A DNA stretch of 64,000 nt from Fibrobacteria bacterium (GTDB taxonomy: Bacteria; Fibrobacterota; Fibrobacteria; UBA11236; JADFYW01): positions 625,564 to 689,563 of the forward strand of contig OZ253440.1 of assembly GCA_965261055.1 (NCBI GenBank), read 5' to 3'. The translations under genes were made by a program, and so were the position numbers. The notes beneath the pieces are model-generated. The model searched no databases. It saw nothing but the letters and a program-made list of their open reading frames with translations, and was not told the DNA's origin. Numbering within the stretch: the stretch's first letter is position 1; each line of letters begins with the position of its first letter. Below are positions 10,593-23,311 of the stretch, piece after piece.

Positions 10593-12134
10593 TTAACCTA
10601 AATAGTTTTTAATTTGATCTAATCCTCGGAACTGTAAAGCTTCCGAAAGATGTATCTTTTGAATTTTTTCTGAACCAGCTAAATCAGCAGTCGTTCTAGA
10701 AACTTTTAAAATTCGGTCATGCGAACGAGATGAAATATGATTTCTAGAAATATATAATTTTAAAAAATCTTTAGCGTCCTCTGTCAAAACACAAAACTGT
10801 CGTATTCCTCTAGAGCCTAAATGACCATTGAATAGATGACTCGGCAAACTTGAATAACGATTTTTTTGAATTCCCCAAGCCTTTTCTATTCTCAATTTTA
10901 TTTCTTCCGAACTCTCACCAAGCTTATGGGATAACAAATCTTCTGGTGGTAAGGGTGTAAGTTCCACCTGTAAATCAATACGATCTAATAACGGACCTGA
11001 AATTTTAGATAGATAATTTTTAACTTGATGTATAGGACAAGTACACGATTTATAAGGATCAATTAAAAAACCACAAGGGCAAGGGTTCATTGCTGCACCA
11101 AAAATAAAGCGAGACGGGTATTTTAAAGTCATTTGTGTTCTAGATATTGTAATTTCAAAATCTTCTAATGGTTGCCTTAAAACATTCAAATGATCCTTTC
11201 TAAATTCTCCTAACTCATCTAAAAACAAAACCCCATGATGAGCCAAACTCACTTCTCCTGGTTTTGGATAAGCCCCGCCTCCAACCAATGCAGATTGACT
11301 TATATTGTGATGTGGACTTCTAAAAGGTCTTTCTAGTAAAAGACTAGACCCCACAGGTAAAGCACCCGCAGAACTATGAATCATCGTCGCTTCCAAACTT
11401 TCCTCCAAACTCATTTCAGGAAATATTGTAGGAATTCGTTTTGCCATCATTGACTTTCCACAACCAGGACTCCCTATAAACAAAAAATGATGCGAACCAG
11501 CAACAGAAATTTCACAGGCTCTTCTCGCTAGAGACTGCCCCCTTACTTCTGAAAAATTAATTCCTTTAATATTAGTGTTGTCCCTACCCTTCTTTTCAAA
11601 GACAGGTTTTTCAACCTCTTTTCCTTTTAAATAAAGAATCAATTCTAAAATGTTCTTTACAGGAATGATATTAACATCCTTAATAATGTCAACTTCTTGA
11701 AAGTTTTCATAAGGTAAGTACACCTTTTTAATTTTATGTTTGTAAGCATACAAACAGGTTGCAAGGCATCCTTGAACAGGTCGAATTCCACCATCTAAAG
11801 AAAGCTCTCCTAAAACTAAAGTTGATTCCAACTCTTGATTTTGAATTTTAATTTGTTCAGAAGCGACCAACAATCCTAGAGCAATGGGGAGATCTAAAGA
11901 AGATCCCATTTTTTTCATGTAAGCAGGGGCTAAGTTGACCACCATCCTTTTGTTTGGTATTAAGAAATCTGAATTTCTCAAAGCCGAAAAAACACGATCT
12001 CTTGATTCTTTAACAGCACTATCACCAAGTCCAACAATATTAAAAGTTGGTAAACCGCTACAACAATCCACTTCAACAACAATAGGAAAAGCCTGTATCC
12101 CAATTACTGTAGAAGACTTTATTTTAGATAGCAT
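10593..12134 (-). CDS. comM: YifB/ComM family Mg-chelatase-like AAA+ ATPase
   Basis: 513 aa with an N-terminal Lon-protease-like ChlI domain and a Walker A motif GSPGCGKSM. Family-typical architecture. Confidence 0.85.
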   Translation of the reverse strand: MLSKIKSSTVIGIQAFPIVVEVDCCSGLPTFNIVGLGDSAVKESRDRVFSALRNSDFLIPNKRMVVNLAPAYMKKMGSSLDLPIALGLLVASEQIKIQNQELESTLVLGELSLDGGIRPVQGCLATCLYAYKHKIKKVYLPYENFQEVDIIKDVNIIPVKNILELILYLKGKEVEKPVFEKKGRDNTNIKGINFSEVRGQSLARRACEISVAGSHHFLFIGSPGCGKSMMAKRIPTIFPEMSLEESLEATMIHSSAGALPVGSSLLLERPFRSPHHNISQSALVGGGAYPKPGEVSLAHHGVLFLDELGEFRKDHLNVLRQPLEDFEITISRTQMTLKYPSRFIFGAAMNPCPCGFLIDPYKSCTCPIHQVKNYLSKISGPLLDRIDLQVELTPLPPEDLLSHKLGESSEEIKLRIEKAWGIQKNRYSSLPSHLFNGHLGSRGIRQFCVLTEDAKDFLKLYISRNHISSRSHDRILKVSRTTADLAGSEKIQKIHLSEALQFRGLDQIKNYLG

Positions 12135-12423
12135 TTTTAAACTCTGAATTTAAAAATTTATAACTTAAATATTGCTTCTTAACTTGCTCTAAAATTTTAG
12201 ATCTAGTGTTATGTGAAGACAACTGAACCGTTGGGAAAACAATTTTTTTAGATGGCCAAGATAAATAAAATCCATATTGACCATAAAAAAGTTGAATTCC
12301 TCCTAGTCTGATTTGCTGATTAAAAACAACTTCAACTTTAGCTTTAACTCTTGAAAGTGCTCCCATAATGGGAGTCACCTTTAAAGAGCTTATGTATAAA
12401 TTAGAATGTATATATAATTTCAT
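12124..12423 (-). CDS. Divergent SpoVG-like protein (paralog)
   Basis: 99 aa. The pattern KAKVEVVFNQQIRLGGIQLFYGQYGFYLSWPSKK parallels the SpoVG core (KAxxSITFDxxFVVHDIRVIEGxxGLFVAMPSxR). It lies in tandem with a clearer spoVG. Confidence 0.5.
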   Translation of the reverse strand: MKLYIHSNLYISSLKVTPIMGALSRVKAKVEVVFNQQIRLGGIQLFYGQYGFYLSWPSKKIVFPTVQLSSHNTRSKILEQVKKQYLSYKFLNSEFKNAI

Positions 12424-12445
12424 AATTTCCTTTTAAACAATTATT

Positions 12446-12754
12446 TTAAGATACTTTTGTTTCTTCTCTTTCTGTTACTTTCGTCATTGATAAATATTCA
12501 TCTAAAATTTCATCATTTAGATATTGTCTAACTTCAGATGTTGTTGGGATAACGATGTTGAAGTACTTTTTATCTTCTTTTCTAAACTCTTGAGGAAGAG
12601 AAACAAACAGACCATTTTTACCTTCTAAAATCCGTATGCCCGAAATGGATATTTCATCATTGAGCACAATTCTAGAAAAGGCTTTCAAAATATTTTTAGG
12701 ATCTTGATTCTTAATTTGGAAAATGTAAATTTCTGTTAATTTTAAGTTCGTCAT
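12446..12754 (-). CDS. spoVG: SpoVG family protein
   Basis: The start is placed at the ATG at 12754 (MTNLKLTEI...), preceded by AAAGGAGA. The core ILKAFSRIVLNDEISISGIRILEGKNGLFVSLPQEFRKEDKKYFNIVIPTTSEVRQYLNDEILDEY matches the SpoVG consensus. Confidence 0.75.
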   Translation of the reverse strand: MTNLKLTEIYIFQIKNQDPKNILKAFSRIVLNDEISISGIRILEGKNGLFVSLPQEFRKEDKKYFNIVIPTTSEVRQYLNDEILDEYLSMTKVTEREETKVS

Positions 12755-13152
12755 AGGATTCTCCTTTAAGTTAAATGAACGAATGTGAAAACTGTTAAAC
12801 ATCTCAACAACTTTCGAAATACTCTATAACAATAACTGTGCCAAATAACAAAAACCCGATTTAAAACCTCTTAAACGGAATTATCAAAATTTAATTTGCT
12901 TTTATCAGTGCAAAATGTGCAAAGATCTTGTGCAAAGAGTGAATTCTCCGCTTTCAACTCCGCTTCAGACAACAAATTGGTAGAGACTAGCTTTGGTTAA
13001 CAATACTGATAATAAAAATAAAGCTTTGAAAAAATGAATCCTCATGATTAAGCTGTAAGCTTTCCTAATCAGAAATAATTTCATAGGCTATATTTTTATA
13101 TCTTTACGGATTACATTTTAAGTAGCTATACCTTTTAACAGAGATTTTTTAA

Positions 13153-14721
13153 ATGGGTGAAGAACAAAAACAACAACTAGAACAGCAACTGTGGAATATT
13201 GCTGATACCCTTAGGGGAAAAATGAATGCCGATGAGTTTAGAGATTATATATTGGGTTTTATTTTCTTTAAGTATCTATCAGAAAAAATGCACCTATATG
13301 CCAATGAAGAATTACAAAACGACAATATTTTATATAAAGATATAAATGAAAATACTTTTGAGGGTAAAGAATATTTAAAAGCAATTAGCGAAGGATCATT
13401 AAGTAAATTGGGTTATTTTTTAAAGCCTTCAGAATTATTTTCTAATGTATCAGCTAAGGGAAATTCATTAGCAGGGGGCGATACATTTATTCTTCAAGAT
13501 TTAGCGACTATCCTTAAAAATATTGAACAAAGTACACTAGGAACTGAAAGCGAAGATGACTTTGGTAATTTATTTGAAGATTTAGACCTTACCTCAACGA
13601 AGCTAGGTAAAACAGATGAGCAAAGAAATGTTATTATTTCAAAGGTATTAGCTCATTTGGATAAGATAGATTTTCAGTTAGAAAACATTGAGCTTGATGT
13701 ATTAGGAGATGCTTATGAATACCTAATTTCACAATTTGCAAGCGGTGCAGGTAAAAAGGCAGGAGAGTTTTACACTCCTCAAGAAGTCTCTAAAATTTTA
13801 GCCAAAATAGTGACCACAGGAAAAAGTAAATTAAAAAATGTATATGATCCTACTTGTGGTTCAGGTTCTTTACTCTTGCGTGTTGCCAAAGAGGTTAAAG
13901 ATGTTTCGGCTTTTTATGGTCAGGAGATGAACCGAACGACTTACAATTTAGCACGAATGAATATGATACTTCATGATGTGCATTATAAGAAATTTGATAT
14001 AAAACAAGAAGATACTTTGGAGCGTCCTCAACATATTGATGAGCGTTTTGAAGCTATTGTCGCCAATCCTCCTTTTAGTGCCAAATGGAGTGCGAATCCT
14101 TTACATATGAGTGATGATCGTTTTAGCCAATATGGTAAATTAGCTCCCAAGAGTAAAGCCGATTATGCCTTTTTACAGCATATGATACATCAATTAGCAG
14201 AAAATGGTACTATGGGGATTGTATTGCCTCACGGGGCTTTGTTTAGAGGAGCCGCTGAAGGACATATAAGAAAGTATCTCATTGAGGATAGAAACTATTT
14301 AGATACGGTGATTGGTTTACCTGCTAATGTATTTTATGGAACAAGTATTCCTACTTGTATTTTGGTGTTTAAAAAGTGTAGAGAACACAGTGATAATATC
14401 TTATTCATTGATGCTTCTGGACATTATGAAAAAGTACAAACTCAAAATGTATTAAGAGAAAAACATATAGATAAAATTGTAAACACTTATCGAAATAGGA
14501 CGACCGAAGACAAGTATAGCTATGTGGTATCTATGGAGGAGGTGAAAGAAAATGATTACAACCTCAACATTCCGAGATATGTAGATACTTTTGAAGAAGA
14601 ACAGCCTATTGATTTGGAGGCAGTGAGTAATGAGTTGCAATCTTTAGAAAGTGATATTGTTAAGACCGATAAAACCATTGTAAATTTTTGTAAAGAACTC
14701 AATATTAAAACTCCGTTTTAA
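13153..14721 (+). CDS. hsdM: Type I restriction-modification system DNA N6-adenine methyltransferase subunit M
   Basis: 522 aa with an HsdM N-terminal domain, a SAM motif I DPTCGSGSLL and a catalytic motif IV ANPPFS. Confidence 0.95.
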   Translation: MGEEQKQQLEQQLWNIADTLRGKMNADEFRDYILGFIFFKYLSEKMHLYANEELQNDNILYKDINENTFEGKEYLKAISEGSLSKLGYFLKPSELFSNVSAKGNSLAGGDTFILQDLATILKNIEQSTLGTESEDDFGNLFEDLDLTSTKLGKTDEQRNVIISKVLAHLDKIDFQLENIELDVLGDAYEYLISQFASGAGKKAGEFYTPQEVSKILAKIVTTGKSKLKNVYDPTCGSGSLLLRVAKEVKDVSAFYGQEMNRTTYNLARMNMILHDVHYKKFDIKQEDTLERPQHIDERFEAIVANPPFSAKWSANPLHMSDDRFSQYGKLAPKSKADYAFLQHMIHQLAENGTMGIVLPHGALFRGAAEGHIRKYLIEDRNYLDTVIGLPANVFYGTSIPTCILVFKKCREHSDNILFIDASGHYEKVQTQNVLREKHIDKIVNTYRNRTTEDKYSYVVSMEEVKENDYNLNIPRYVDTFEEEQPIDLEAVSNELQSLESDIVKTDKTIVNFCKELNIKTPF

Positions 14722-15825
14722 ATGATGAATGTTAAGTATCATAACAATCAATTTCCACCTAAAATTCAGTTAGATGATGAAATTCATAAATTGATTAATC
14801 AAGCGAGAACAGAGTTAGGAAGATACGATGGTTTTTTATCTTCTATGGTTAATAGTCAAGTATTACTCTCTCCATTATTTACACAAGAAGCTGTTTTGTC
14901 TTCAAAAATAGAGGGGACACAGTCTACTTTAACTGAAGTTTTAGAATTTGAAGCTTATGAAGGAAAACAAAATATAACAGAAGCAAAAAGAAATGATATA
15001 AGAGAAGTTCTAAATTACCGTTATGCCTTAAATACTGCCGTTGAATTATTAAAAACCCTCCCTTTGTCTAAAAGAGTGTTTTTAGCTTGTCATAAAGAAC
15101 TAATGAAAAATGCTAGAGGGAAAAATAAAGTCCCTGACGAATATCGAAAAACGCCCGTATGGATTGGAGGGTCTTCTTTTGAATCTGCTCGGTTTATACC
15201 TATTGATGCTAATAAAATTCCTCAAGCAATGAGTGATTTTGAAAAATACCTCCATAATTCAGATGAGTATGATGATTTAATAAAAATAGCTATTTTACAT
15301 GCAGAATTTGAAGCGATTCATCCATTTTTAGACGGAAATGGAAGATTAGGAAGACTATTAATTCCTTTGTATTTATGGAAAAAAGATTTACTAAGCAGTC
15401 AATCATTTTATATGAGTACTTATTTTGAAAATGATCGAGATTCTTATTATGATGGATTATTAGATGTCTCTAAAAACGAGAATTGGTTAGATTGGTGTAA
15501 ATATTTTTTAAAAGGAGTTATTAGTCAATCTAAACAAAATTTAAATCGAGCAAGAAAAATCACACAACTTTATAATGATTTAAAAATCAAAATTCCTACA
15601 CTCACCAAATCTCAATATGGGATTACGGCATTAGACTTTATCTTTAAGGTTAATTATTTTAAGTCTACTACCTTTTATGAAAGGTCTAAAATTCCTAAAC
15701 CTACTGCAAGAAGATTATTAAAGACTTTAGTAGAAAAAGAAATTTTACAGTATACACCCGGCAGTGGTAGAATCCCTAATTTTTACATATTTAAACAATT
15801 GATAGATATGGCAGATGGAAAATAG
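14722..15825 (+). CDS. fic: Fic-family AMPylase (class II, with an N-terminal inhibitory helix)
   Basis: 367 aa with the canonical FIC motif HPFLDGNGRLGR (HxFx[D/E]GNGRxxR). An upstream SxxxEG inhibitory motif (SSKIEG) is present. The start codon abuts the hsdM stop (TAAATG). Confidence 0.9.
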   Translation: MMNVKYHNNQFPPKIQLDDEIHKLINQARTELGRYDGFLSSMVNSQVLLSPLFTQEAVLSSKIEGTQSTLTEVLEFEAYEGKQNITEAKRNDIREVLNYRYALNTAVELLKTLPLSKRVFLACHKELMKNARGKNKVPDEYRKTPVWIGGSSFESARFIPIDANKIPQAMSDFEKYLHNSDEYDDLIKIAILHAEFEAIHPFLDGNGRLGRLLIPLYLWKKDLLSSQSFYMSTYFENDRDSYYDGLLDVSKNENWLDWCKYFLKGVISQSKQNLNRARKITQLYNDLKIKIPTLTKSQYGITALDFIFKVNYFKSTTFYERSKIPKPTARRLLKTLVEKEILQYTPGSGRIPNFYIFKQLIDMADGK

Positions 15826-15903
15826 TTTTGTGGCTCACTTATGTAACACAAAATAGTTTGTGGCTCACTTATGTAACACAAAATAGTTTGTGGCTCACTT
15901 ATA
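15826..15903. repeat. Tandem direct repeat, ~30-bp unit x 2.6 (TTTGTGGCTCACTTATGTAACACAAAATAG), beginning at the fic stop codon and ending 6 nt before the hepT ATG
   Basis: Three head-to-tail copies are read directly (unit 1 has one extra T, and the third copy is truncated after ...CACTTATA). Each full unit contains the ATG-TAA start-stop pair. Confidence 0.9.
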
Positions 15904-15909
15904 GGAATT

Positions 15910-16326
15910 ATGAATGAAGAAAAATTAGATTTATCAGTTTTTGAAAAAGCAATAGTATCATTGAAAAGAGCATTAGATGAGTATCAAAAAGATGAACAGA
16001 ATGAGTTTATCCGTGATTCTTGTATTCAGCGGTTTGAATATTGTTATGAGTCCGCTAAAAAAATATTAATGAGACATTTTAAAAATACTGAAGATGATCC
16101 TACCAGCTTTGATGAGATGAAATTTGAGGAGATAATAAGATTAGGAGCTAAAAAAGCTTTGTTACGACATAGTTGGGATATATGGAATAATTATAGAGAA
16201 AACCGAAATAAAACTTTTCATAGCTATGATGAAACTATTGCCATAGAAATTGTGGAACAAATACCAAAATTTTATACCGAAGTAGACCATTTATTAGATA
16301 AACTCAAGGGATATTATGAAACTTGA
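15910..16326 (+). CDS. hepT: HepT-like HEPN-domain RNase toxin (type VII TA toxin family)
   Basis: 138 aa with the HEPN Rx4HxY motif (RNKTFHSY) near the C-terminus. Its stop overlaps the start of the downstream MNT ORF by 11 nt (ATGAAACTTGA). Confidence 0.85.
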   Translation: MNEEKLDLSVFEKAIVSLKRALDEYQKDEQNEFIRDSCIQRFEYCYESAKKILMRHFKNTEDDPTSFDEMKFEEIIRLGAKKALLRHSWDIWNNYRENRNKTFHSYDETIAIEIVEQIPKFYTEVDHLLDKLKGYYET

Positions 16327-17329
16327 TTTTGACATCAATAAAGAACAGTTTGCTATTGTTCAAAATGTTTTAGAACAACATTTGCCTGTAGATTGTAAAG
16401 TTTGGATATTTGGTAGTCGTGCCAAAAATACCGCTCAAGATTATTCTGATTTGGATTTAGCCTTAGAAGGCAAGGAAAAAATAGATAAAGCAATCATTTC
16501 ACAATTAAAAGAAGCATTTGAAGGTTCGCTATTACCTTATACAGTAGATATTTTAGATTTGAATGATATATCAAATGAATTTAAAACAATCATAGATCAA
16601 CAAAAAATCTTATTCTCAATAGAAGAAAATAAAGCAATATCTAAGTTGAGGTTTAAAAATGAGAACGGCAATGACTATCCCGATTGGCAAGAGAAAAAGT
16701 TGGGGGAGGTTTTTCATTCAAAGAAAGGTAGCGGTCTATCAAAAAAAAATATAGTTAGTGATGGAAAATATAAATGTATACTATATGGTACATTATTTAC
16801 AAAATATGATGAAATTATTGATGAGGTAATAGACAGTACAAATGAAGAAGGTAAGGTTAAATCTCAAATTGGAGATTTACTAGTTCCCACATCAACGACA
16901 ACAACAGGAATTGATTTGGCTAACTTTACAGCATTAAATAAAGAAGGGGTATTATTAAGTGGGGATATTACTATTTTAAAATTTAATAAAAAAGGTGATA
17001 ATGTTTATTGGGCATACTATTTAACACATTATAAGAAATATGAACTTGCAAGATATGCTCAGGGAACAACAATAGTACATATATATTTTTCTCATTTTAA
17101 AAAAACTCAAATTGAAGAGCCTTCTCTCCCCGAACAAAAAAAGATAGCGAACTTTCTTTGTTCTGTAGATGAAAAGATTGAGAAACTAACTAGGAAAAAA
17201 GAATTATTACAGGAATACAAGAAAGGTATTATGCAAAAAATCTTTTCTCAAGAATTACGCTTTAAAGATGAGAACAACAATCACTATCCCGATTGGGACG
17301 AGAAAAAGTTGGGGGGGGGTGTTGTTTGA
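16316..17329 (+). CDS. hsdS: MNT nucleotidyltransferase (HepT-cognate antitoxin domain) fused in-frame to HsdS N-terminal half (TRD1 + central conserved region); truncated by a frameshift at the G9 tract
   Basis: Residues 1-105 carry the minimal nucleotidyltransferase motif GSRAKNTAQDYSDLDLAL (GS..DxD). There is no stop before LRFKNENGNDYPDWQEKKLGEVF, the HsdS N-terminal conserved start. This is followed by TRD1 and the central conserved EQKKIANFLCSVDEKIEKL. The ORF ends DEKKLGGGVV* inside the duplicated N-conserved motif because of the G9 run. Confidence 0.85.
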   Translation: MKLDFDINKEQFAIVQNVLEQHLPVDCKVWIFGSRAKNTAQDYSDLDLALEGKEKIDKAIISQLKEAFEGSLLPYTVDILDLNDISNEFKTIIDQQKILFSIEENKAISKLRFKNENGNDYPDWQEKKLGEVFHSKKGSGLSKKNIVSDGKYKCILYGTLFTKYDEIIDEVIDSTNEEGKVKSQIGDLLVPTSTTTTGIDLANFTALNKEGVLLSGDITILKFNKKGDNVYWAYYLTHYKKYELARYAQGTTIVHIYFSHFKKTQIEEPSLPEQKKIANFLCSVDEKIEKLTRKKELLQEYKKGIMQKIFSQELRFKDENNNHYPDWDEKKLGGGVV

Positions 17330-17858
17330 ACATAAATTAAAGAGTACAGGAAAAGAAGAAGTTTATTCTGTTTCAGTACATAAAGGTTTAATTAATCAGA
17401 TAGAACATTTAGGCAGGAGCTTTTCTGCTAAAAATACTACCGATTATAGTCTTGTAAAGCCAAATGATATTGTTTATACTAAAAGTCCAACAGGTCAATT
17501 CGCTTATGGAATAATAAAACAAGCGAAAATTAATAAAGATGTAATAGTATCTCCTCTTTATGCTGTTTTTACTCCTGAATCAGAATATCTTGGATATATA
17601 TTTGACATATACTTTGAGTCAAAATATAATACTCATAATTATTTGCATTCTATTATTCAAAAGGGAGCAAAGAATACAATAAATATTACCAATACTACTT
17701 TTCTTTCAAAATCATTTAAACTTCCAATTGATTTCGCTGAACAAAAAAAGATAGCGAACTTCCTTTATTCTGTAGATGCCAAAATAGACTTGGTAAATAC
17801 CCAAAGAGAAAAAACAAAGGTTTTTAAAAAAGGACTTTTACAACAAATGTTTGTGTAA
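17268..17858 (+). CDS. hsdS: HsdS C-terminal half (TRD2 + C-terminal conserved region), in the +1 frame relative to the upstream part
   Basis: ...GGVLFEHKLKSTGKEEVYSV...(TRD2)...FAEQKKIANFLYSVDAKIDLV. The C-terminal conserved repeat duplicates the central one, as in canonical HsdS. The reading frame joins the upstream part if the G-tract is 8 rather than 9. Confidence 0.85.
   Translation: MRTTITIPIGTRKSWGGVLFEHKLKSTGKEEVYSVSVHKGLINQIEHLGRSFSAKNTTDYSLVKPNDIVYTKSPTGQFAYGIIKQAKINKDVIVSPLYAVFTPESEYLGYIFDIYFESKYNTHNYLHSIIQKGAKNTINITNTTFLSKSFKLPIDFAEQKKIANFLYSVDAKIDLVNTQREKTKVFKKGLLQQMFV
17311..17319 (+). repeat. Homopolymeric G9 tract inside hsdS at the TRD1/TRD2 boundary (candidate phase-variation switch)
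   Basis: Nine G are read directly at 17311-17319. The homologous site at the TRD1 start (16701-16708) is GGGGGAGG, an interrupted run. G8 would give KLGGVLFEH in frame with TRD2. Confidence 0.9.
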
Positions 17859-17868
17859 TTAATTATGA

Positions 17869-18924
17869 ATGCGGGAATTACGAATGATGAATGAAACAAA
17901 GAACAATAATTTTAATATACCAAGATGTGTAGATACTTTTAAAAAAGAAGCTGTAGACTTAGAAGCAGTGAGTAATGAGTTGACATTTATTGACCTATTT
18001 GCAGGAATAGGAGGTATAAAACTTGGTTTTGAAAATGCAGGTTTTCAATGTGTCTTTTCTAATGACTTTGATAAGAATTCAAAAATCACATTTGATATAA
18101 ATGTTGCTTTAGATAAGCAAATGATTCTTGGGGATATTCAAAAAATTTCTACAAACGAAATTCCTAATTTTGATATATTATGCGGAGGTTTTCCTTGTCA
18201 GCCATTTTCTGTTGCTGGCTATAGACAAGGATTTAATGATGAAAATGGCAGAGGAAATCTGTTTTTTGATATAGTAAGGATTTTGAAAAATAAAATGCCA
18301 AAAGCATTTTTATTAGAAAATGTAAAAAATCTAAAAACTCATGACAAAGGAAATACAATTAGCATCATTTACCATGAGCTACAAAAGCTAGGTTATAAAA
18401 TTACAAATAAAGTATTAAATACTATGGAATATGGTAATTTACCACAAAACAGAGAGAGAATTTATATTGTTGGTTTTTTAGAGAAAAAATCATTTAATAA
18501 TTTTGAATTTCCAAGCAAAATACCTCTGACAAAAACAATTCATGATTGCCTAGAGAATAAAGAAATTGATGATAAATATTATTACAATGATAAACCTATG
18601 TATGAAAAAATAAAAAATGATATTACTAAAAAAGATACGGTTTATCAATGGAGAAGACAGTATGTTAGAGAAAATAAAAATGGAGTTTGTCCTACATTGA
18701 CTGCAAATATGGGCACAGGAGGACATAATGTACCCTTGGTTCTGAATGGGAAAGGTATAAGAAAATTAACCCCTAGAGAATGTGCAAACTTTCAGGGCTT
18801 TCCCAAAAATTACAAATTTCCTTCTATTGCCGATTCACACCTATATAAACAATTTGGTAATTCTGTTTCTATTCCTGTAATTAATAGAATTGCTCAAAAT
18901 ATGAATTTAGCTTTAATGAAATAA
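17869..18924 (+). CDS. dcm: DNA (cytosine-5)-methyltransferase (Dcm-type, type II RM modification enzyme)
   Basis: 351 aa with motif I FAGIGG, motif IV GFPCQPFS, motif VI ENVKNL, and C-terminal QFGNSVSIPV (motif X). Confidence 0.9.
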   Translation: MRELRMMNETKNNNFNIPRCVDTFKKEAVDLEAVSNELTFIDLFAGIGGIKLGFENAGFQCVFSNDFDKNSKITFDINVALDKQMILGDIQKISTNEIPNFDILCGGFPCQPFSVAGYRQGFNDENGRGNLFFDIVRILKNKMPKAFLLENVKNLKTHDKGNTISIIYHELQKLGYKITNKVLNTMEYGNLPQNRERIYIVGFLEKKSFNNFEFPSKIPLTKTIHDCLENKEIDDKYYYNDKPMYEKIKNDITKKDTVYQWRRQYVRENKNGVCPTLTANMGTGGHNVPLVLNGKGIRKLTPRECANFQGFPKNYKFPSIADSHLYKQFGNSVSIPVINRIAQNMNLALMK

Positions 18925-18926
18925 TT

Positions 18927-20036
18927 GTGTTTTTTAATAATCAAATTGCTAAACAGAAGAAAAAATATCAATCTTTTTTAAAAATTGCTGGTTGTATATC
19001 TAATCTATTTTCTGATTCAAATATTCCCTATCTTTATTATAGAGTTGCAGAAAAAATATTTTGCCGTGCATTTGAAGCAGAAGATTTATCAAGAAGCGAT
19101 GTATCTGCTGATGCAAAGAAAAATGCTCTTGGAATAGGTTTAAAAACTTTCCTACAAGGTAATAATAAAAGTTTTCAAAAAATTGCAGAATTTAATAGCG
19201 ATAGATTATTATATGCGAATCTTGAATCAAAACAACTTGTTGCGAAAATATCAGAGTTGAGAAATAAGAGAATTGAATTTACTCGGAATACATACGAATT
19301 ACAAAATTCAATATACCATTGTATAATTAGAGATTTTGGGAAATTCAAAATCTTTGAAGAACCAATGGACAAAGTGGATATTCATAATATTCGTAATGTT
19401 AAATCCAATAAAAGTTCAATTACTTTTAATGATGAAAAAAATGAATATTCATTTTTACTTGCAAAAAGTACTCTTACAAAAAGATTTATTACGAAACCTA
19501 TTATTTATGAATTTGATGTTGAAATTCTTAAAGATCCATTACTTGAACTCAAAAATATTTTATATCAAAAAGATTTACTACTAGAAACAGAAAATAGAAT
19601 AAAGCAAACTATTTATTTACCTTTGTATGGTAGAGGTTCAACTGTATTTGAGAAAAGTGGACTAAATCAATGGAATGCAGGAGGAAGAGTAAGAGATCCA
19701 AATGAAGTTTATATTCCTATTCCAGCTGAAATTTATAAAAACTTTAAAGATTTTTTTCCCAATAGAGACACTCCATTTAATTTAAAACTTCCAAATGGAA
19801 AAATTATGCAATCTAAAATATGTCAAGATGGAGGTAAAGCTTTAATGTCTTATTCTAACAGAGAGCTTGGGCATTGGATTTTAAGAAGTATTTTAAAATT
19901 AAAAGAAGGAGAATTATTGACCTACGAAAAATTACAAGAAATAGGCATTGATTCAGTGAGTATTAATAAAATCAATAATTTAGAATTTGAGATAAATTTT
20001 ACAAAAATTGGTAGTTATGAAAAATTTATTAAATAA
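18927..20036 (+). CDS. Hypothetical protein; candidate cognate type II restriction endonuclease for the adjacent C5-MTase
   Basis: 369 aa, starting at GTG 2 nt after the dcm stop and co-directional. There is a possible PD-(D/E)xK-like segment EAEDLSRSDVSADAKK. No family is recognised with confidence. The position is classic for an R gene following M. Confidence 0.45.
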   Translation: MFFNNQIAKQKKKYQSFLKIAGCISNLFSDSNIPYLYYRVAEKIFCRAFEAEDLSRSDVSADAKKNALGIGLKTFLQGNNKSFQKIAEFNSDRLLYANLESKQLVAKISELRNKRIEFTRNTYELQNSIYHCIIRDFGKFKIFEEPMDKVDIHNIRNVKSNKSSITFNDEKNEYSFLLAKSTLTKRFITKPIIYEFDVEILKDPLLELKNILYQKDLLLETENRIKQTIYLPLYGRGSTVFEKSGLNQWNAGGRVRDPNEVYIPIPAEIYKNFKDFFPNRDTPFNLKLPNGKIMQSKICQDGGKALMSYSNRELGHWILRSILKLKEGELLTYEKLQEIGIDSVSINKINNLEFEINFTKIGSYEKFIK

Positions 20037-20133
20037 AATCAAAGTTTAATTGAAGACATTGAAGAATTGTTAAAATTAATAGGTAGTATTCAAAAAACAA
20101 TTCGTAATTCATAATTAACAATTCGTAATTAAA

Positions 20134-22980
20134 ATGACAACACAATCTGAACAAGCATTAGAAAATAATTTAATAGAGCAATTGCTTAAATTTGATAAAT
20201 ACAGTCGTATTAAAATCAAAGGCAAAGCTGACCTACGCGCAAATCTTAAAACACAATTAGAAAAACATAATCATGTTACTTTGTCTGATAAAGAATTTCA
20301 AAAAATTCTTCCTATCCTTAATACAGGAACCGTATTTGAAAGAGCCAAAATATTAAGAGGAATAAGACACCATATTATAAAGGATGATGGAAAGACATTT
20401 TATTTTGAATTCATCAATCAAACAGAATGGTGTAAAAATGAGTTTCAAGTTACCAATCAAGTAACTATAGAGGGTGAATATGAAAATCGTTATGATGTTA
20501 CCATTCTGATTAATGGCTTGCCATTAGTTCAAATAGAGCTTAAACGAAGAGGGTGTGAGATGGGAGAAGCACACAGGCAGATATTACGCTATAAAGATCA
20601 TTCCTTTGCTAGTGGGTCGGCTTTGTTTGAATATGTGCAGTTATTTATCATTAGCAATGGAGTAAATACCAAATATCTTGCTAATAATCGTAAAAGAGAT
20701 TTAAATTTTAAGCAAACCTTTTATTGGGCAGATGAGCAGAATAATAAAATAACCCATTTATCAGAATTTGCTAATGTATTTTTAGAGCCTTGTCATCTAT
20801 CCAAGATGATATGCAAATACATTGTACTTGCCAAAACAGATAAACTATTAATGGTATTGAGACCGTATCAATACTATGCTTGTGAAAAGCTCATAGATAG
20901 AGTTAAAAACACCGATAAGAACGGCTATATATGGCATACCACAGGTAGTGGTAAAACACTCACTTCTTTTAAGGCAAGTCAAATACTCATGCACATGCCC
21001 GAAGTACATAAAGTGGTGTTTGTAGTAGATAGAAGAGACTTGGATTATCAGACGACCAAAGAGTTCAATAATTTTTCTGAAGGTAGTGTAGATGGCACAG
21101 ACAACACCAAAGCTTTAGTAAAACAATTTGGTGATGATACTAAATTATTAGTTACTACTATTCAGAAATTAAATAATGCCATCGGCAGTCAGCGATATAC
21201 TTCTACAATGGAAACATTAAAAGATAAACGAATTGTTTTCATATTTGATGAATGCCACCGTTCCCAATTTGGGGAAACACATCAGCGTATCGTTAAATAC
21301 TTTAATAATCATCAAATGTTTGGTTTTACAGGAACACCAATATTTGCTGATAATGCTGTTAAGAATCAATTAGGTGAAAGAACAACAAAAGAGCTTTTTG
21401 GAGATTGCTTACATAAGTATGTTATCACAGATGCTATTCGTGATGAGAATGTGTTGAGTTTTTCTATTGAGTATGTAGGTAAATATACAGAAAAGAATAC
21501 AAGAAACTATATAGATATAGAAGTAGAAGCAATAGATGAGAGAGAGCTTTTTGATAATGAGGAACGCTTGAATAAAATCACAGATTATATCATTCACAAT
21601 CATGCAACTAAAACACATAGCAAACAATTCACAGCAATGTTTGCAGTTAGTGGCATTGCCACACTAATTAAGTATTATGAGCTTTTTAAAGCTAAAGAAA
21701 AAGAACACAAGTTAAAAGTTGCTACCATTTTTTCTTATTCTGCCAATGAAGAGAATGATGCTGTTGATGGTATCACATTTTTTAATGAAGAGGGTGCTAT
21801 TGAAGATACTCCAAACTCCAAACACAGTAGAGAAAAATTAGATGAGTTTATCGCTGATTACAATAAGATGTTTGGCACTAAGTTTTCTACAAAAGATAGT
21901 CAGTCCTATTACGACTATTATAATGAGATAGCTAAGCGTGTAAAGAATCGTGAAATTGATATTTTGATAGTAGTTAATATGTTTCTTACAGGTTTTGATA
22001 GTAAGCCATTAAACACGCTATATGTAGATAGAAATTTAAAACATCACGGATTAATACAAGCTTTTTCAAGAACTAACAGGATATTAAATAAGAACAAGTC
22101 TCACGGTAATATTGTATCGTTTAGAAACCTTAAGAAAGCGACAGATGAAGCGATTGCCTTATTTTCAAATAAAGATGCTAAAGAGACAATATTACTTAAA
22201 CCATATCAAAATTATTTAAGTGATTTTAATGAGGCTGTAGAGGAGTTAAAACAAATTGCTCCGACTGTAGATAGTGTCAATAATTTATTAACTGAAAGTG
22301 ACGAATTAAAGTTCGTTGAAGCATTTAGAAACTTAATGAGAATACAAAACAAACTTAGTTGTTTTGCTGATTTTTCATTTAAAGATTTACAGATGTCTGA
22401 ACAAGAATTTAAGGATTACAAGAGTAAATACTTAGATATATATGACAAAGTAAATCGCAATAATGATAAAGAAAAAGTATCTGTTTTAGACGATGTGGAT
22501 TTTGAATTAGAGCTTGTACATAAAGATGTTATTAATGTCGATTATATCATTCAGTTACTTTCTCAATTAGTTGAAGCTAAAGACAAAAACTATGAAAATC
22601 AAAAAAAACAAATCTTAGATACACTTTCAGGAGATCTTAATTTAAGAAGCAGAAAAGCATTAATTGAGCAATTTATAGAAGAAAATCTTGTAGGTATTGA
22701 AAATTCTCAAAATGTAGCCGATGAGTTTAAATCATATTGGGATAAGCAGAAAGAAAAAGCATTTAATGATTTATGTGATGAAGAGAGTTTAGATACAAGC
22801 CAAATAAAAGATATAGTAGAAGAATATTTATTTGCTAATCAAGTGCCTGATATGAGAGATAAAATAATGAAGTCTATGTTAAAAAAGGAGACGCTTTTAA
22901 TGCGTCAAAAAACTATCCCAAGAGTAAAAGATAAGATTATGAATTTTGTGAATACCTTTATTGAAGGTATGCCCGCTTGA
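20134..22980 (+). CDS. hsdR: Type I restriction enzyme endonuclease/translocase subunit R
   Basis: 948 aa with SF2 helicase motifs HTTGSGKTLTS (motif I) and DECHRSQ (motif II). It has HsdR N- and C-terminal domains and is the last gene of the co-directional RM array. Confidence 0.95.
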   Translation: MTTQSEQALENNLIEQLLKFDKYSRIKIKGKADLRANLKTQLEKHNHVTLSDKEFQKILPILNTGTVFERAKILRGIRHHIIKDDGKTFYFEFINQTEWCKNEFQVTNQVTIEGEYENRYDVTILINGLPLVQIELKRRGCEMGEAHRQILRYKDHSFASGSALFEYVQLFIISNGVNTKYLANNRKRDLNFKQTFYWADEQNNKITHLSEFANVFLEPCHLSKMICKYIVLAKTDKLLMVLRPYQYYACEKLIDRVKNTDKNGYIWHTTGSGKTLTSFKASQILMHMPEVHKVVFVVDRRDLDYQTTKEFNNFSEGSVDGTDNTKALVKQFGDDTKLLVTTIQKLNNAIGSQRYTSTMETLKDKRIVFIFDECHRSQFGETHQRIVKYFNNHQMFGFTGTPIFADNAVKNQLGERTTKELFGDCLHKYVITDAIRDENVLSFSIEYVGKYTEKNTRNYIDIEVEAIDERELFDNEERLNKITDYIIHNHATKTHSKQFTAMFAVSGIATLIKYYELFKAKEKEHKLKVATIFSYSANEENDAVDGITFFNEEGAIEDTPNSKHSREKLDEFIADYNKMFGTKFSTKDSQSYYDYYNEIAKRVKNREIDILIVVNMFLTGFDSKPLNTLYVDRNLKHHGLIQAFSRTNRILNKNKSHGNIVSFRNLKKATDEAIALFSNKDAKETILLKPYQNYLSDFNEAVEELKQIAPTVDSVNNLLTESDELKFVEAFRNLMRIQNKLSCFADFSFKDLQMSEQEFKDYKSKYLDIYDKVNRNNDKEKVSVLDDVDFELELVHKDVINVDYIIQLLSQLVEAKDKNYENQKKQILDTLSGDLNLRSRKALIEQFIEENLVGIENSQNVADEFKSYWDKQKEKAFNDLCDEESLDTSQIKDIVEEYLFANQVPDMRDKIMKSMLKKETLLMRQKTIPRVKDKIMNFVNTFIEGMPA

Positions 22981-23057
22981 TTTTTAGCAGTTTCATAAAC
23001 ACAATTTGACCTATTACGAAATCTTCCAACCGAGATGAGCAGACATAAAAAAAGCCA

Positions 23058-23092
23058 AGAAGTGAATCTTGGCTGATAAATTACTGACAATC
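23058..23092 (-). terminator. Rho-independent terminator (AGCCAAGA-TTCACTT-CTTGGCT followed by a T-run on the minus strand)
   Basis: Inverted repeat gccaaga/tcttggc with a T7 run after it on the minus strand. It is the second of two hairpins downstream of tRNA-Leu and between the convergent hsdR and tRNA genes. Confidence 0.45.
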
Positions 23093-23169
23093 TTACTGTA
23101 TTACCTTATAATCTAGCAACATTTAGACTCATTCTATATCTCCATTTTTAAGTGTTTTAATAAACAGGC

Positions 23170-23200
23170 ATAAAAAAAGCCTCTTACAAAATGTAAGAGG
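23170..23200 (-). terminator. Rho-independent terminator immediately 3' of tRNA-Leu (GCCTCTTAC-loop-GTAAGAGGC followed by a T-run on the minus strand)
   Basis: A 9-bp perfect stem gcctcttac/gtaagaggc, followed by TTTTTTTA on the minus strand. Confidence 0.55.
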
Positions 23201-23205
23201 CAAAT

Positions 23206-23290
23206 TGCGGACGGGCGGACTTGAACCGCCATGAGAAAATTTCTCACTAGCCCCTCAAGCTAACGTGTCTACCAATTTCACCACGACCGC
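23206..23290 (-). tRNA. tRNA-Leu (anticodon GAG), long variable arm, no encoded CCA
   Basis: The reverse complement is GCGGTCGTGGTGAAATTGGTAGACACGTTAGCTTGAGGGGCTAGTGAGAAATTTTCTCATGGCGGTTCAAGTCCGCCCGTCCGCA. It has a 3-bp D-stem, an anticodon loop TTGAGGG (anticodon GAG), a variable-arm hairpin GAGAAA/TTTCTC, and a T-arm GGCGG-TTCAAGT-CCGCC. There is one U5-U68 mismatch in the acceptor stem. Confidence 0.85.
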
Positions 23291-23311
23291 AAAAGTTGTT
23301 ATAAAAATCAA

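What the first reader, a model, noticed from the sequence alone, without database searches (positions are those of the whole stretch)
13153..22980. Composite 9.8 kb defence supra-operon: a type I RM system with Fic, HepT/MNT and a complete type II RM nested between hsdM and hsdR
Seven co-directional genes run hsdM, fic, hepT, mnt::hsdS, dcm, a candidate REase, and hsdR. Junctions are tight or overlapping throughout. The hsdM stop abuts the fic start, hepT and mnt overlap by 11 nt, and dcm and the candidate REase are separated by 2 nt. The only non-coding gaps are short (84 nt between fic and hepT, occupied by the tandem repeat; 10 nt between hsdS and dcm; 97 nt between the candidate REase and hsdR). 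HEPN/MNT modules and Fic genes inserted into type I RM operons have been noted in comparative-genomics work on defence islands. Nesting a second, independent RM system (C5-MTase plus REase) between hsdS and hsdR in the same transcriptional unit is unusual. It implies coordinated expression of an AMPylating enzyme, an RNase toxin/antitoxin, and two restriction systems. The whole block abuts tRNA-Leu, a classical island integration site.
Basis: partly seen in the sequence, partly recalled or inferred. Interest (0 to 1): 0.8.

Follow-up and report, generated by a model that had tools for sequence, protein, structure and literature searches.

The report
Restriction operon packed with nested defences
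A type I restriction-modification operon in an uncultivated bacterium carries four other defence modules on the same strand: a Fic toxin, an RNase toxin whose antidote is fused to the restriction enzyme's DNA-reading subunit, and a complete second restriction system; this is a crowded example of a known pattern, but the fused antidote belongs to a widespread architecture I could not find described in the literature.

Summary
The block is real. All seven reported genes, their junction distances and their families were reproduced with HMMs, a fold search and comparison with other loci.

Three corrections:
- hsdS is not one ORF. A G9 tract at 17311-17319, the only G run of 6 or more in the window, splits it into MNT+TRD1 (337 aa) and TRD2 (196 aa). 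G8 would restore the frame, as in the phase-variable NgoAV system.
- The first 37 codons of the dcm ORF are a diverged copy of an hsdM 3' end, which looks like a recombination scar. Elsewhere dcm-REase is a free-standing, mobile two-gene cassette (15 loci, 8 of them viral contigs).
- HEPN/MNT is not a chance insertion. hsdM-HEPN-MNT::HsdS-(cargo)-hsdR recurs widely: about 115 of the best 149 protein-cluster representatives are such fusions, and 17/17 metagenome fusions have the HEPN gene directly upstream. Some systems also have HEPN + MNT::HsdR.

Defence genes embedded in type I operons are already documented (PrrC, C. jejuni rlo genes, TgvAB, "guilt-by-embedding"). No nested type II system appeared in about 87 comparator loci, so this composite is a rare variant, not a new kind. 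Co-transcription, the tRNA-island origin and any functional coupling remain untested.

The parts
13153..14721 (+). hsdM, type I m6A methyltransferase subunit (522 aa)
   Evidence: Pfam N6_Mtase 3.7e-114 + HsdM_N; NCBIfam hsdM 456.7 bits, above the 242.75 cut-off; 81-82% identical to HsdM of compact M-S-R operons L006/L007
14722..15825 (+). fic, class II Fic AMPylase of the SoFic-like type (367 aa), cargo at the M-S junction
   Evidence: Fic_N 1.8e-25 + Fic 8.6e-18; PADLOC SoFic 1.2e-110 over the full length; NCBIfam SoFic equivalog only 167.8 bits, below the 550 cut-off; the sequence shows HPFLDGNGR and the inhibitory SSKIEG motif; Fic cargo also occurs in L025, L047 and L070
15819..15902 (+). 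30-bp tandem repeat (2.8 copies) filling the fic-HEPN gap; it starts in the fic stop codon
   Evidence: TRF score 159, 98% matches; unique in the window; no significant RNA fold, z = 0.5; no Rfam hit. Function unknown.
15910..16326 (+). HEPN toxin gene of the HI0074 / NTase_sub_bind type (138 aa), with an RX4HXY motif (R-NKTF-H-S-Y)
   Evidence: Pfam PF08780 4.4e-29; NCBIfam HI0074 family 68 bits, above the 55.8 cut-off; the motif is read from the translation; the same motif is present in 19/20 HEPN genes next to MNT::HsdS or MNT::HsdR fusions
16316..17329 (+). MNT (aa 1-~105, GSX10DXD) fused to the first half of HsdS (TRD1 + central conserved region). The ORF ends 10 nt after the G9 tract.
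   Evidence: Polbeta 8.1e-12, NTP_transf_2 1.2e-07 at aa 17-106 and Methylase_S 6.3e-17 at aa 123-297; intact full-length fusions P0164 and P0237 are 51-55% identical; about 115 of the best 149 cluster representatives are fusions
17311..17319 (+). G9 homopolymer causing the hsdS frameshift; G8 or G11 would give one 513-aa MNT::HsdS
   Evidence: Sequence; it is the only G run of 6 or more in 64 kb, with 0.0009 expected; it is the only long-overlap split-ORF junction at a homopolymer in the window; the paralogous TRD1 start reads GGGGGAGG (D2)
17268..17858 (+). Second half of hsdS (TRD2 + C-terminal conserved region), out of frame in this assembly
   Evidence: Methylase_S 7.2e-07; PADLOC Specificity_I 4.1e-35; 83% identical to the TRD2 of Polaribacter locus L015
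17869..17979 (+). hsdM 3'-end remnant forming codons 1-37 of the dcm ORF (recombination scar)
   Evidence: Direct repeats D3/D5: 17914-17993 against 14566-14648, 73-83% nt identity; protein alignment; L007 HsdM C-terminus hit by dcm aa 4-42
17869..18924 (+). dcm, C5-cytosine DNA methyltransferase. The core begins at TTG 17980; free-standing homologues are 318-319 aa.
   Evidence: PF00145 5.7e-94; TIGR00675 342 bits; PADLOC MTase_II 2.2e-125; 79-82% identical to L001-L004
18927..20036 (+). Type II restriction endonuclease (369 aa): N-terminal PD-(D/E)XK nuclease + C-terminal B3-like DNA-binding domain
20134..22980 (+). hsdR, type IC-like restriction/translocase subunit (948 aa)
   Evidence: HSDR_N 9e-41, SWI2_SNF2 1.2e-63, T1R_D3-like 6.1e-60, EcoR124_C 3.1e-67; TIGR00348 494 bits; 72-78% identical to Bacteroidota HsdR
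23205..23291 (-). tRNA-Leu(GAG), with its 3' end facing the block; this is the boundary marker, not part of the system
   Evidence: ARAGORN; Rfam tRNA 47.3 bits; the same secG-tRNA-Leu(GAG) linkage occurs in L063/L064 without an RM block

Best explanation
SHOWN. The backbone is a type IC-like hsdM-hsdS-hsdR operon of a lineage in which a HI0074-type HEPN RNase gene sits between hsdM and hsdS, and its cognate MNT adenylyltransferase antitoxin is translationally fused to the N-terminus of HsdS. Two further cargo modules sit at the two junctions that are hot spots for cargo in this operon family. A SoFic-like Fic AMPylase lies between hsdM and HEPN. A mobile two-gene type II RM cassette (C5-MTase + PD-(D/E)XK/B3 REase) lies between hsdS and hsdR. 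The cassette carries a 37-codon remnant of a foreign hsdM 3' end, so it probably arrived by recombination from another type I locus where it sat downstream of hsdM. hsdS carries a G9 tract exactly at the central-conserved-region/TRD2 boundary.

INFERRED.
1. The block works as layered defence. Two DNA-restriction specificities (m6A type I, m5C type II) are backed by two abortive-infection effectors (HEPN RNase, Fic AMPylase).
2. The G tract is a slipped-strand switch of the NgoAV kind. G9 gives an MNT-TRD1 half-subunit that would dimerise and read a palindromic bipartite site. G8 gives a full HsdS with a different, asymmetric site. Because the tract lies downstream of MNT, both phases keep the antitoxin.
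3. Tethering MNT to HsdS (and, in other genomes, to HsdR) couples HEPN neutralisation by AMPylation of the RX4HXY tyrosine to the presence or integrity of the type I complex. Loss, depletion or phage inhibition of the complex would then unleash the RNase. This is a PrrC/EcoprrI-like guard, or equivalently an addiction module for the operon.
4. The genes are probably co-transcribed from upstream of hsdM, possibly with internal promoters.
For: - Gene content and junctions.
- Compact M-S-R in the closest HsdR relatives (L006, L007, L015, L034, L056).
- Cargo at the M-S and S-R junctions in many others (Abi_2, PDDEXK_4, SIR2_2, YhcG, Mrr_cat, Abi_alpha, Fic, Schlafen, DUF3800, KilA-N, OLD-like, GmrSD).
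- Conserved hsdM-HEPN-MNT::HsdS-(cargo)-hsdR order in L061, L062 and in 17/17 metagenome fusions.
- Second HEPN + MNT::HsdR in L061, L069, L113; SoFic-like Fic cargo in L070.
- Size of the fusion family.
- Catalytic motifs: RX4HXY in 19/20 associated HEPN genes; GSX9-11DXD in 146/149 MNT representatives.
- Free-standing, phylum-hopping dcm-REase cassette, also on viral contigs.
- hsdM scar.
- G9 uniqueness, with no general homopolymer frameshifting in the window.
- NgoAV precedent (polyG at the 3' end of hsdS1, active truncated HsdS, -1 G fuses hsdS1/2 and changes specificity): PMC9577141.
- HepT/MntA AMPylation mechanism: PMC7641770, PMC11586414.
- SoFic abortive infection: PMC12249575.
- No + strand terminator-like site in the block.
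Against: - No expression, methylome or phage data exist for this locus.
- The G9 could be a homopolymer assembly error, in which case hsdS would simply be intact. It could also be a fixed inactivating mutation.
- No relative examined has a G tract at the same position.
- The guard/addiction coupling rests only on the fusion architecture. No experiment on any MNT::HsdS protein was found.
- The MNT domain scores below NCBIfam's MntA equivalog cut-off (45.8 against 60 bits). The gene order (HEPN first) is that of the HI0074/HI0073 subfamily, for which AMPylation has not, to my knowledge, been shown.
- The promoter-like count in the block equals the shuffled expectation (62 against 60.9), so transcription architecture cannot be inferred.
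- The Fic protein misses the NCBIfam SoFic equivalog cut-off.
Confidence: 0.6

Rival explanations
1. This is a decaying type I locus used as a dumping ground. hsdS is a pseudogene, with the frameshift fixed rather than switching. The type I system is dead or methylation-only. Selfish modules (type II RM, TA, Fic) accumulated there because insertions are neutral. Co-orientation reflects read-through tolerance, not function.
For: hsdS is out of frame in the assembly. The hsdM remnant shows untidy recombination. No relative has a G tract at that position.
Against: All other ORFs, including the 948-aa hsdR and the 522-aa hsdM, are intact. Both hsdS halves keep full-length, undisrupted frames. The frameshift sits in the single G run of 6 or more in 64 kb, exactly where NgoAV switches. 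A truncated MNT-TRD1-CCR product is the type of half-HsdS known to be active in type IC systems (PMC9577141).
Confidence: 0.15
2. The G9 is an assembly artefact. The true tract is G8, hsdS is a single intact 513-aa MNT::HsdS gene, there is no phase variation, and the rest of the block is as described.
For: Homopolymer length is the commonest error in long-read assemblies. The source is a single 1.6-Mb contig. The intact orthologous architecture is the norm.
Against: Among the overlapping same-strand ORF pairs checked for frameshifts, the hsdS junction is the only long overlap (139 nt) that sits at a homopolymer; one short ordinary overlap holds a T7. The window also holds A/T runs of up to 11. 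That argues against a generally error-prone assembly.
Confidence: 0.2
3. This is a defence island of independent units. The modules are merely adjacent, each with its own promoter (gaps of 84 and 97 nt; a perfect TTGACA-N17-TATAAT at 17602-17630 upstream of dcm), with no regulatory or functional coupling between them.
For: The dcm-REase pair functions as a stand-alone cassette elsewhere. SoFic-type proteins are reported as single-gene defences (PMC12249575). The only perfect sigma-70 consensus in the window lies 240 nt upstream of dcm.
Against: Stop/start abutment (hsdM/fic), an 11-nt overlap (HEPN/MNT), and 2-nt and 10-nt spacers leave no room for promoters at four of six junctions. There is no + strand terminator-like site. 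The MNT-HsdS covalent fusion, conserved in more than 100 clusters, is itself physical coupling. The perfect promoter match is reached by chance in 12/100 shuffles.
Confidence: 0.25

Closest known systems
Defence genes embedded in type I RM operons: EcoprrI/PrrC, C. jejuni rlo/mlo genes (Miller et al. 2005, cited in PMC11411939), V. cholerae VPI-2 T1RM with embedded TgvAB, and the 'guilt-by-embedding' survey of Payne et al. (bioRxiv 10.1101/2024.01.29.577857)
   Same: Extra co-directional defence genes sit between the hsd genes. A second restriction activity can be nested (TgvAB). Abortive-infection toxins (PrrC, Abi, Fic/Doc, HEPN) are typical cargo. The same junctions are occupied in 55 related loci here.
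   Different: Here five cargo genes of three kinds occupy both junctions. The nested restriction system is a classical modification-protected type II M+R pair rather than a type IV enzyme. No such case appeared among about 87 comparator loci.
NgoAV, the phase-variable type IC RM of Neisseria gonorrhoeae (PMC9577141)
   Same: Both are type IC-like, with a poly-G tract at the end of the first half of hsdS. The frameshift yields hsdS1/hsdS2 ORFs, and loss of one G fuses them. The truncated half-HsdS is expected to be active with a palindromic target.
   Different: Here the half-subunit also carries an N-terminal MNT domain. Tract-length variation has not been observed. The host is an uncultivated environmental lineage, not a host-adapted pathogen.
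Type VII HepT/MntA (HEPN/MNT) toxin-antitoxin systems (PMC7641770, PMC11586414) and the HI0074/HI0073 pair
   Same: Overlapping two-gene unit. HEPN has RX4HXY and MNT has GSX10DXD. The HI0074-family HMM scores above its cut-off.
   Different: The antitoxin is not a free small protein but the N-terminal domain of HsdS. The HEPN gene is 5' of MNT. The MntA equivalog HMM scores below its cut-off. The module is fixed inside an hsd operon.
SoFic single-gene anti-phage defence (PADLOC SoFic; PMC12249575)
   Same: Fic_N + Fic core with HPFx[D/E]GNGR, an intramolecular inhibitory helix motif, similar length, and a full-length PADLOC SoFic match at 1e-110.
   Different: It scores below the NCBIfam SoFic equivalog cut-off. 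No SoFic-like_C Pfam hit. There is no room for a 47-aa AS1-like antitoxin gene downstream. It is embedded in an hsd operon.
B3-domain restriction endonucleases (R.NgoAVII/CglI, BfiI, EcoRII, UbaLAI) and ThaI/HinP1I/MspI-type PD-(D/E)XK enzymes
   Different: The nuclease domain is PD-(D/E)XK-like, not the PLD/HKD domain that (from my own knowledge of those structures) NgoAVII and BfiI use. No N-subunit ATPase gene is present. The recognition sequence is unknown.

Membership tests
Type I RM system, IC-like family | HsdM with an N6-adenine MTase domain and the HsdM N-terminal domain | tested here: met
   PF02384 3.7e-114, PF12161 5.9e-17; TIGR00497 above the cut-off
Type I RM system, IC-like family | HsdS with two TRDs separated by repeated conserved regions, as one polypeptide | tested here: inconclusive
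   Both TRDs and both conserved repeats are present (D1/D2) but split by the G9 frameshift. It is one polypeptide only with G8 or G11.
Type I RM system, IC-like family | HsdR with an N-terminal nuclease, an SF2 translocase and an EcoR124-type C-terminal domain | tested here: met
   HSDR_N, SWI2_SNF2, T1R_D3-like, EcoR124_C 3.1e-67
Type I RM system, IC-like family | Subunit complementation or cross-hybridisation with EcoR124I-family members; ATP-dependent cleavage remote from the site | not testable with these tools
   Needs biochemistry or genetics
[quoted passage not shown] | HEPN toxin with the RX4HXY RNase motif | tested here: met
   R-NKTF-H-S-Y in the 138-aa protein; the motif is present in 19/20 HEPN genes next to the fusions
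[quoted passage not shown] | MNT with the GSX10DXD nucleotidyltransferase motif, matching the MntA model | tested here: inconclusive
   The motif is present (GSRAKNTAQDYSDLD), but NCBIfam MntA_antitoxin scores 45.8 bits, below the 60 cut-off
[quoted passage not shown] | Two separate small proteins encoded by an adjacent gene pair | tested here: not met
   The genes are adjacent and overlap by 11 nt, but MNT is the N-terminal domain of HsdS. This is a fused derivative.
[quoted passage not shown] | MNT AMPylates HEPN and thereby neutralises its toxicity | not testable with these tools
   Needs toxicity rescue and mass spectrometry
HI0074/HI0073 NTase substrate-binding / MNT pair | Match to the HI0074 family model above its cut-off, with a partner MNT immediately adjacent | tested here: met
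   TIGR01987 68 bits, above 55.8; PF08780 4.4e-29; HEPN lies upstream of MNT in 41/43 stand-alone and 17/17 fused loci
SoFic defence | Fic core HPFx[D/E]GN[G/K]R plus the intramolecular (S/T)xxxE(G/N) inhibitory motif | tested here: met
   HPFLDGNGR and SSKIEG in the translation; Fic_N + Fic
SoFic defence | Equivalog-level similarity to SoFic | tested here: inconclusive
   PADLOC SoFic 1.2e-110 over the full length, but NCBIfam NF046030 scores 167.8 bits against a 550 cut-off. No SoFic-like_C hit, whereas the L070 homologue has one.
Type II RM (C5-MTase + REase) | Full-length C5-MTase | tested here: met
   PF00145 5.7e-94 covering profile positions 2-322 of 324
Type II RM (C5-MTase + REase) | Adjacent nuclease-fold protein, with the pairing conserved across genomes | tested here: met
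   PD-(D/E)XK fold hits; PADLOC REase_II 2.8e-104; the M-R pair is conserved in 15 loci
Type II RM (C5-MTase + REase) | Sequence-specific cleavage blocked by the cognate methylation | not testable with these tools
   Needs enzyme assays or a methylome. GCGC and CCGG depletion in the window is only a hint.
NgoFVII-family REase (as named by NCBI for homologues) | C-terminal B3-like DNA-binding domain | tested here: met
NgoFVII-family REase (as named by NCBI for homologues) | N-terminal PLD/HKD nuclease domain, as in NgoAVII/BfiI | tested here: not met
Phase-variable hsdS (NgoAV type) | Homopolymer tract inside hsdS whose +/-1 change switches between split and fused ORFs | tested here: met
   G9 at 17311-17319; G8 gives ...KKLGGVLFEHK... 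in frame
Phase-variable hsdS (NgoAV type) | Observed tract-length polymorphism within or between populations | not testable with these tools
   No reads or sister genomes are available. The exact-match look-ups found no other contig.
tRNA-associated genomic island | Adjacent to the 3' end of a tRNA gene | tested here: met
   The 3' end of tRNA-Leu(GAG) at 23205 lies 224 nt from the hsdR stop
tRNA-associated genomic island | Integrase gene, flanking direct repeat of the tRNA 3' end, deviant composition | tested here: not met
   None of the 8 ORFs is an integrase. No tRNA-derived repeat was found. Block GC is 0.298 against 0.309-0.311 in the flanks.

The most novel reading that the evidence does not exclude
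HEPN + MNT::HsdS (and HEPN + MNT::HsdR) would be an unrecognised class of 'toxin-guarded' type I restriction enzymes. The type VII antitoxin is built into the restriction complex. Destroying, depleting or inhibiting the complex (by phage anti-restriction proteins, or by loss of the operon) would stop AMPylation of the HEPN RNase and trigger abortive infection or post-segregational killing. In this locus a poly-G switch placed just downstream of the MNT domain would let the cell change restriction specificity without ever disarming the antitoxin.
Probability: 0.3. Interest if true: 0.75.

Novelty: new variant of a known kind. Interest (0 to 1): 0.5.

Why it matters
Embedding of defence genes in type I RM operons is an accepted pattern, so the composite itself mainly adds an extreme example: five cargo genes, including a complete type II RM, which is rare.

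1. The antitoxin-HsdS fusion is not a local accident. It is a large, conserved family, sometimes mirrored by an antitoxin-HsdR fusion. That makes a PrrC-like guard or addiction mechanism for type I enzymes directly testable with a handful of constructs.
2. A poly-G switch in hsdS in an environmental, uncultivated lineage extends NgoAV-type phase variation beyond host-adapted pathogens.
3. The hsdM-tail scar gives a concrete clue to how cargo moves between type I loci.

Tried and rejected
- Exact-sequence look-ups of window proteins (Dcm, HsdR, Fic, and the 100% hit P0001) found no contig. The source genome and its strain-level relatives could therefore not be retrieved, and neither G-tract polymorphism nor an empty site could be examined.
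- Synteny test through PGK homologues. The nearest relatives are only 66% identical. They keep pgk-tpiA-secG-tRNA-Leu(GAG) but continue with psd, so they neither confirm nor refute insertion at this site.
- Island hallmarks (integrase, tRNA-derived direct repeats, GC deviation): none found.
- The 30-bp tandem repeat as a structured RNA or known RNA family: no significant fold (z = 0.5) and no Rfam hit. As a dispersed repeat: unique in the window. As an AS1-like anti-SoFic gene: no room for one.
- Sequence search of the REase against PDB chains gave only spurious Trp-repressor hits. The fold search was needed.
- The PLD/HKD nuclease reading of the REase, implied by the 'NgoFVII family' label, is rejected in favour of PD-(D/E)XK.
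- Promoter scan: the number of sigma-70-like sites equals the shuffled expectation. The single perfect consensus is not significant.
- Palindrome depletion to guess the type II target: GCGC and CCGG are strongly depleted, but so are several other CG-containing tetramers, so nothing is assigned.
- A first pass at classifying metagenome MNT ORFs over-called fusions, because one HsdS query carried a second MNT domain. It was redone without that query.
- Literature searches for a description of MNT-HsdS fusions found none in the held library. That is absence in this library, not proof of novelty.

Full report
OBSERVATION

- The hsdM stop (14721) abuts the fic start (14722).
- An 84-nt gap is filled by a 30-bp x2.8 tandem repeat.
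- HEPN and MNT overlap by 11 nt.
- 10 nt separate hsdS from dcm, 2 nt separate dcm from the REase, and 97 nt separate the REase from hsdR.

tRNA-Leu(GAG) lies on the minus strand at 23205-23291 with its 3' end towards the block.

HMM searches confirm every family:
- HsdM: N6_Mtase 3.7e-114.
- Fic: Fic_N + Fic, PADLOC SoFic 1.2e-110.
- HEPN: an HI0074-type protein (NTase_sub_bind 4.4e-29; TIGR01987 above its cut-off).
- MNT::HsdS: MNT domain (Polbeta/NTP_transf_2, aa 17-106) followed by Methylase_S.
- Dcm: C5-MTase (PF00145 5.7e-94).
- REase: PADLOC REase_II 2.8e-104 over the full length; RE_NgoFVII_C 2.1e-14.
- HsdR: IC-like, with HSDR_N, SWI2_SNF2, T1R_D3-like and EcoR124_C 3.1e-67.

No intrinsic-terminator-like site lies on the + strand within the block.

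CORRECTION 1: hsdS IS SPLIT AT A POLY-G TRACT

'mnt::hsdS' is two overlapping ORFs, 16316-17329 and 17268-17858. The switch point is a G9 run at 17311-17319. With G8 the reading is ...DWDEKKLGGVLFEHK..., parallel to the start of TRD1 (...DWQEKKLGEVFHSKK...). The paralogous DNA at the TRD1 start reads GGGGGAGG (D2).

The G9 is the only G run of 6 or more in the 64-kb window, against 0.0009 expected. It is also the only place in the window where two long same-strand frames overlap at a homopolymer, although A/T runs of up to 11 are present. That argues against a generally indel-prone assembly. The public assembly also calls the 337-aa product (P0121).

The position, at the end of the central conserved region and before TRD2, is the position of the poly-G tract of NgoAV. 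There the truncated HsdS1 is active with a palindromic target, and loss of one G fuses hsdS1 and hsdS2 and changes specificity (PMC9577141). No relative examined has a tract at this spot. Without reads I cannot separate phase variation from a fixed mutation or a homopolymer miscall.

CORRECTION 2: THE TYPE II PAIR IS A MOBILE CASSETTE WITH A SCAR

The REase family has 4543 database relatives, 66-78% identical across unrelated phyla. In every other context examined it is a free-standing pair with a Dcm of 318-325 aa (L001-L005, L154, L155), separated by 1-3 nt wherever both genes are on the contig. The pair also occurs on eight IMG/VR viral contigs. None of these 15 loci has hsd genes nearby.

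The window's dcm ORF is 351 aa. Its first 37 codons align with HsdM residues ~460-497 (NIPRYVDTF...DLEAVSNEL) at 73-83% nucleotide identity to the resident hsdM. The TTG at codon 38 aligns with Met1 of the free-standing homologues. The remnant is too diverged to be a recent copy of the resident gene. The simplest reading (inference) is that the cassette was previously downstream of another hsdM and came in by recombination between type I loci.

An AlphaFold model of the REase (pLDDT 82.5) has two domains:

So the enzyme is a real type II-like nuclease, but not a PLD enzyme as the 'NgoFVII family' label would suggest.

CORRECTION 3: HEPN/MNT IS PART OF THE BACKBONE LINEAGE

Full-length MNT::HsdS proteins exist elsewhere (P0164, 523 aa; P0237, 503 aa; MNT part 51-55% identical). 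Their loci read:
- L062: hsdM-HEPN-MNT::HsdS-DUF3800-hsdR.
- L061: hsdM-HEPN-MNT::HsdS-HEPN-MNT::HsdR.

An exhaustive search of 1.84 billion cluster representatives with the MNT+junction segment gave 770 hits at E<=1e-10. Of the best 149:
- 73 are detectably MNT+HsdS.
- 10 of 10 sampled among the remaining long ones are too.
- That gives roughly 115 fusion clusters.

A metagenome scan gave 17 unambiguous fusions. All 17 have the HI0074-type HEPN gene immediately upstream, overlapping by a few nucleotides to about 30 or separated by under 30 nt. Where visible, hsdM lies just before HEPN. hsdR lies either 15-23 nt after hsdS or after 0.5-1.9 kb of cargo. That cargo includes SoFic-like Fic, AAA_21+DUF4276, Schlafen, and a second HEPN + MNT::HsdR.

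19 of 20 associated HEPN genes keep RX4HXY. 146 of 149 MNT domains keep GSX9-11DXD. The window proteins have both motifs.

I found no paper describing this fusion in the held library. PADLOC does contain a Specificity_I profile whose N-terminus matches the MNT domain (PDLC03138).

HOW COMMON IS CARGO, AND IS A NESTED TYPE II RM UNUSUAL?

HsdR relatives were found in 55 loci, mostly Bacteroidota. The closest (72-78% identity) are compact hsdM-hsdS-hsdR operons.

Many others carry co-directional cargo at the M-S, S-R or R-M junction: Abi_2, PDDEXK_4, SIR2_2, DUF4268, YhcG, Mrr_cat, Abi_alpha, Fic (twice), Schlafen, DUF3800, DUF2971, KilA-N, Abi_C, OLD-like and GmrSD.

This matches the literature:
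- PrrC.
- The C. jejuni rlo genes.
- TgvAB, a type IV system embedded in the V. cholerae T1RM (PMC11411939).
- The 'guilt-by-embedding' survey, which states that type I RM systems frequently contain embedded genes.

None of the 55+17 type I loci holds a type II RM. The nest is therefore rare in my sample, but it is a variant of a known pattern.

ISLAND QUESTION

The flanks are housekeeping genes: RNase PH, comM and two spoVG on one side; tRNA-Leu, secG, tpiA, pgk and gap on the other.

The host is a deep-branching uncultivated lineage. The best non-self PGK hit is 66% identical, and its neighbours are named Fibrobacterota or Spirochaetota. Two such relatives keep pgk-tpiA-secG-tRNA-Leu(GAG) and continue with psd, with no RM.

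The block has no integrase, no tRNA-derived repeat and no GC deviation (0.298 against 0.31). Insertion at the tRNA is plausible but not demonstrable.

MECHANISM

Shown:
- Gene content.
- Domain fusions.
- Conserved motifs.
- Conserved architecture.

Inferred:
- Layered defence: two restriction specificities plus two abortive-infection effectors.
- SoFic-type proteins are reported to act by AMPylation-mediated abortive infection (PMC12249575).
- HEPN RNases of type VII TA systems are neutralised by MNT-catalysed AMPylation of the motif tyrosine (PMC7641770, PMC11586414).
- Fusing MNT to HsdS, and elsewhere to HsdR, ties antitoxin supply to the restriction complex. I propose a PrrC/EcoprrI-like guard, or equivalently an addiction module for the operon.
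- The poly-G tract lies downstream of MNT, so either phase keeps the antitoxin.

Rivals: a decaying locus, an assembly error at the G tract, and merely adjacent independent units.

VERDICT

This is a rare, unusually crowded variant of a known kind of arrangement.

Noticed in passing
L061:7586-13129; L069:5595-11204; L113:5588-12291: Type I operons in which both HsdS and HsdR carry an N-terminal MNT domain, each preceded by its own HI0074-type HEPN gene (hsdM-HEPN-MNT::HsdS-[cargo]-HEPN-MNT::HsdR). In L061 hsdR is additionally called as two genes (413 aa + 640 aa).
   Followed up: partly
window 15819-15902: 30-bp tandem repeat (2.8 copies) that begins in the fic stop codon. Each full unit contains an 8-codon GTG...TAG mini-ORF and a CACAAA/TTTGTG inverted pair across unit junctions. 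It is unique in the window, has no significant fold and no Rfam match. Its function (operator, attenuator, duplication scar) is unknown.
   Followed up: partly
window 17602-17630 (+): The only perfect TTGACA-N17-TATAAT in the 64-kb window lies inside hsdS TRD2, about 240 nt upstream of the dcm ORF. It is a possible internal promoter for the type II cassette, but a match of this kind arises in 12 of 100 shuffles.
   Followed up: partly
window 1-64000: GCGC occurs only twice and CCGG five times in 64 kb (observed/expected 0.08 and 0.19 under a maximal-order Markov model). ACGT, TCGA and GATC are also depleted. This may reflect past or present restriction pressure, possibly from the nested m5C system.
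   Followed up: no
L112:1129-2742: An intact MNT::HsdS gene from a metagenome contig contains three G/C homopolymers (C7 at 1743, G8 at 2213, G7 at 2506). This suggests homopolymer-based switching may occur in other members of this fusion family.
   Followed up: no
window 17869-17979: The PADLOC MTase_II profile PDLC03272 aligns from residue 9 of the window Dcm (profile position 46), inside the hsdM-like extension. Some reference members of that MTase family may therefore carry a similar N-terminal extension.
   Followed up: no
window 12124-12802 (-): Two tandem spoVG paralogues (99 aa, weak hit at 9.7e-05; 118 aa, 3.7e-19) lie between comM and the block.
   Followed up: no
window 23035-23201: Two similar hairpin units (ATrAaCAGrCATAAAAAAAGCC followed by a stem-loop) lie between the hsdR stop and tRNA-Leu. 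Both are predicted as minus-strand terminators. They may also stop hsdR read-through as bidirectional hairpins.
   Followed up: no
P0202: A 497-aa HsdS homologue carries an N-terminal GIY-YIG domain (PF01541) instead of MNT. This is another effector-type domain fused to the specificity subunit.
   Followed up: no
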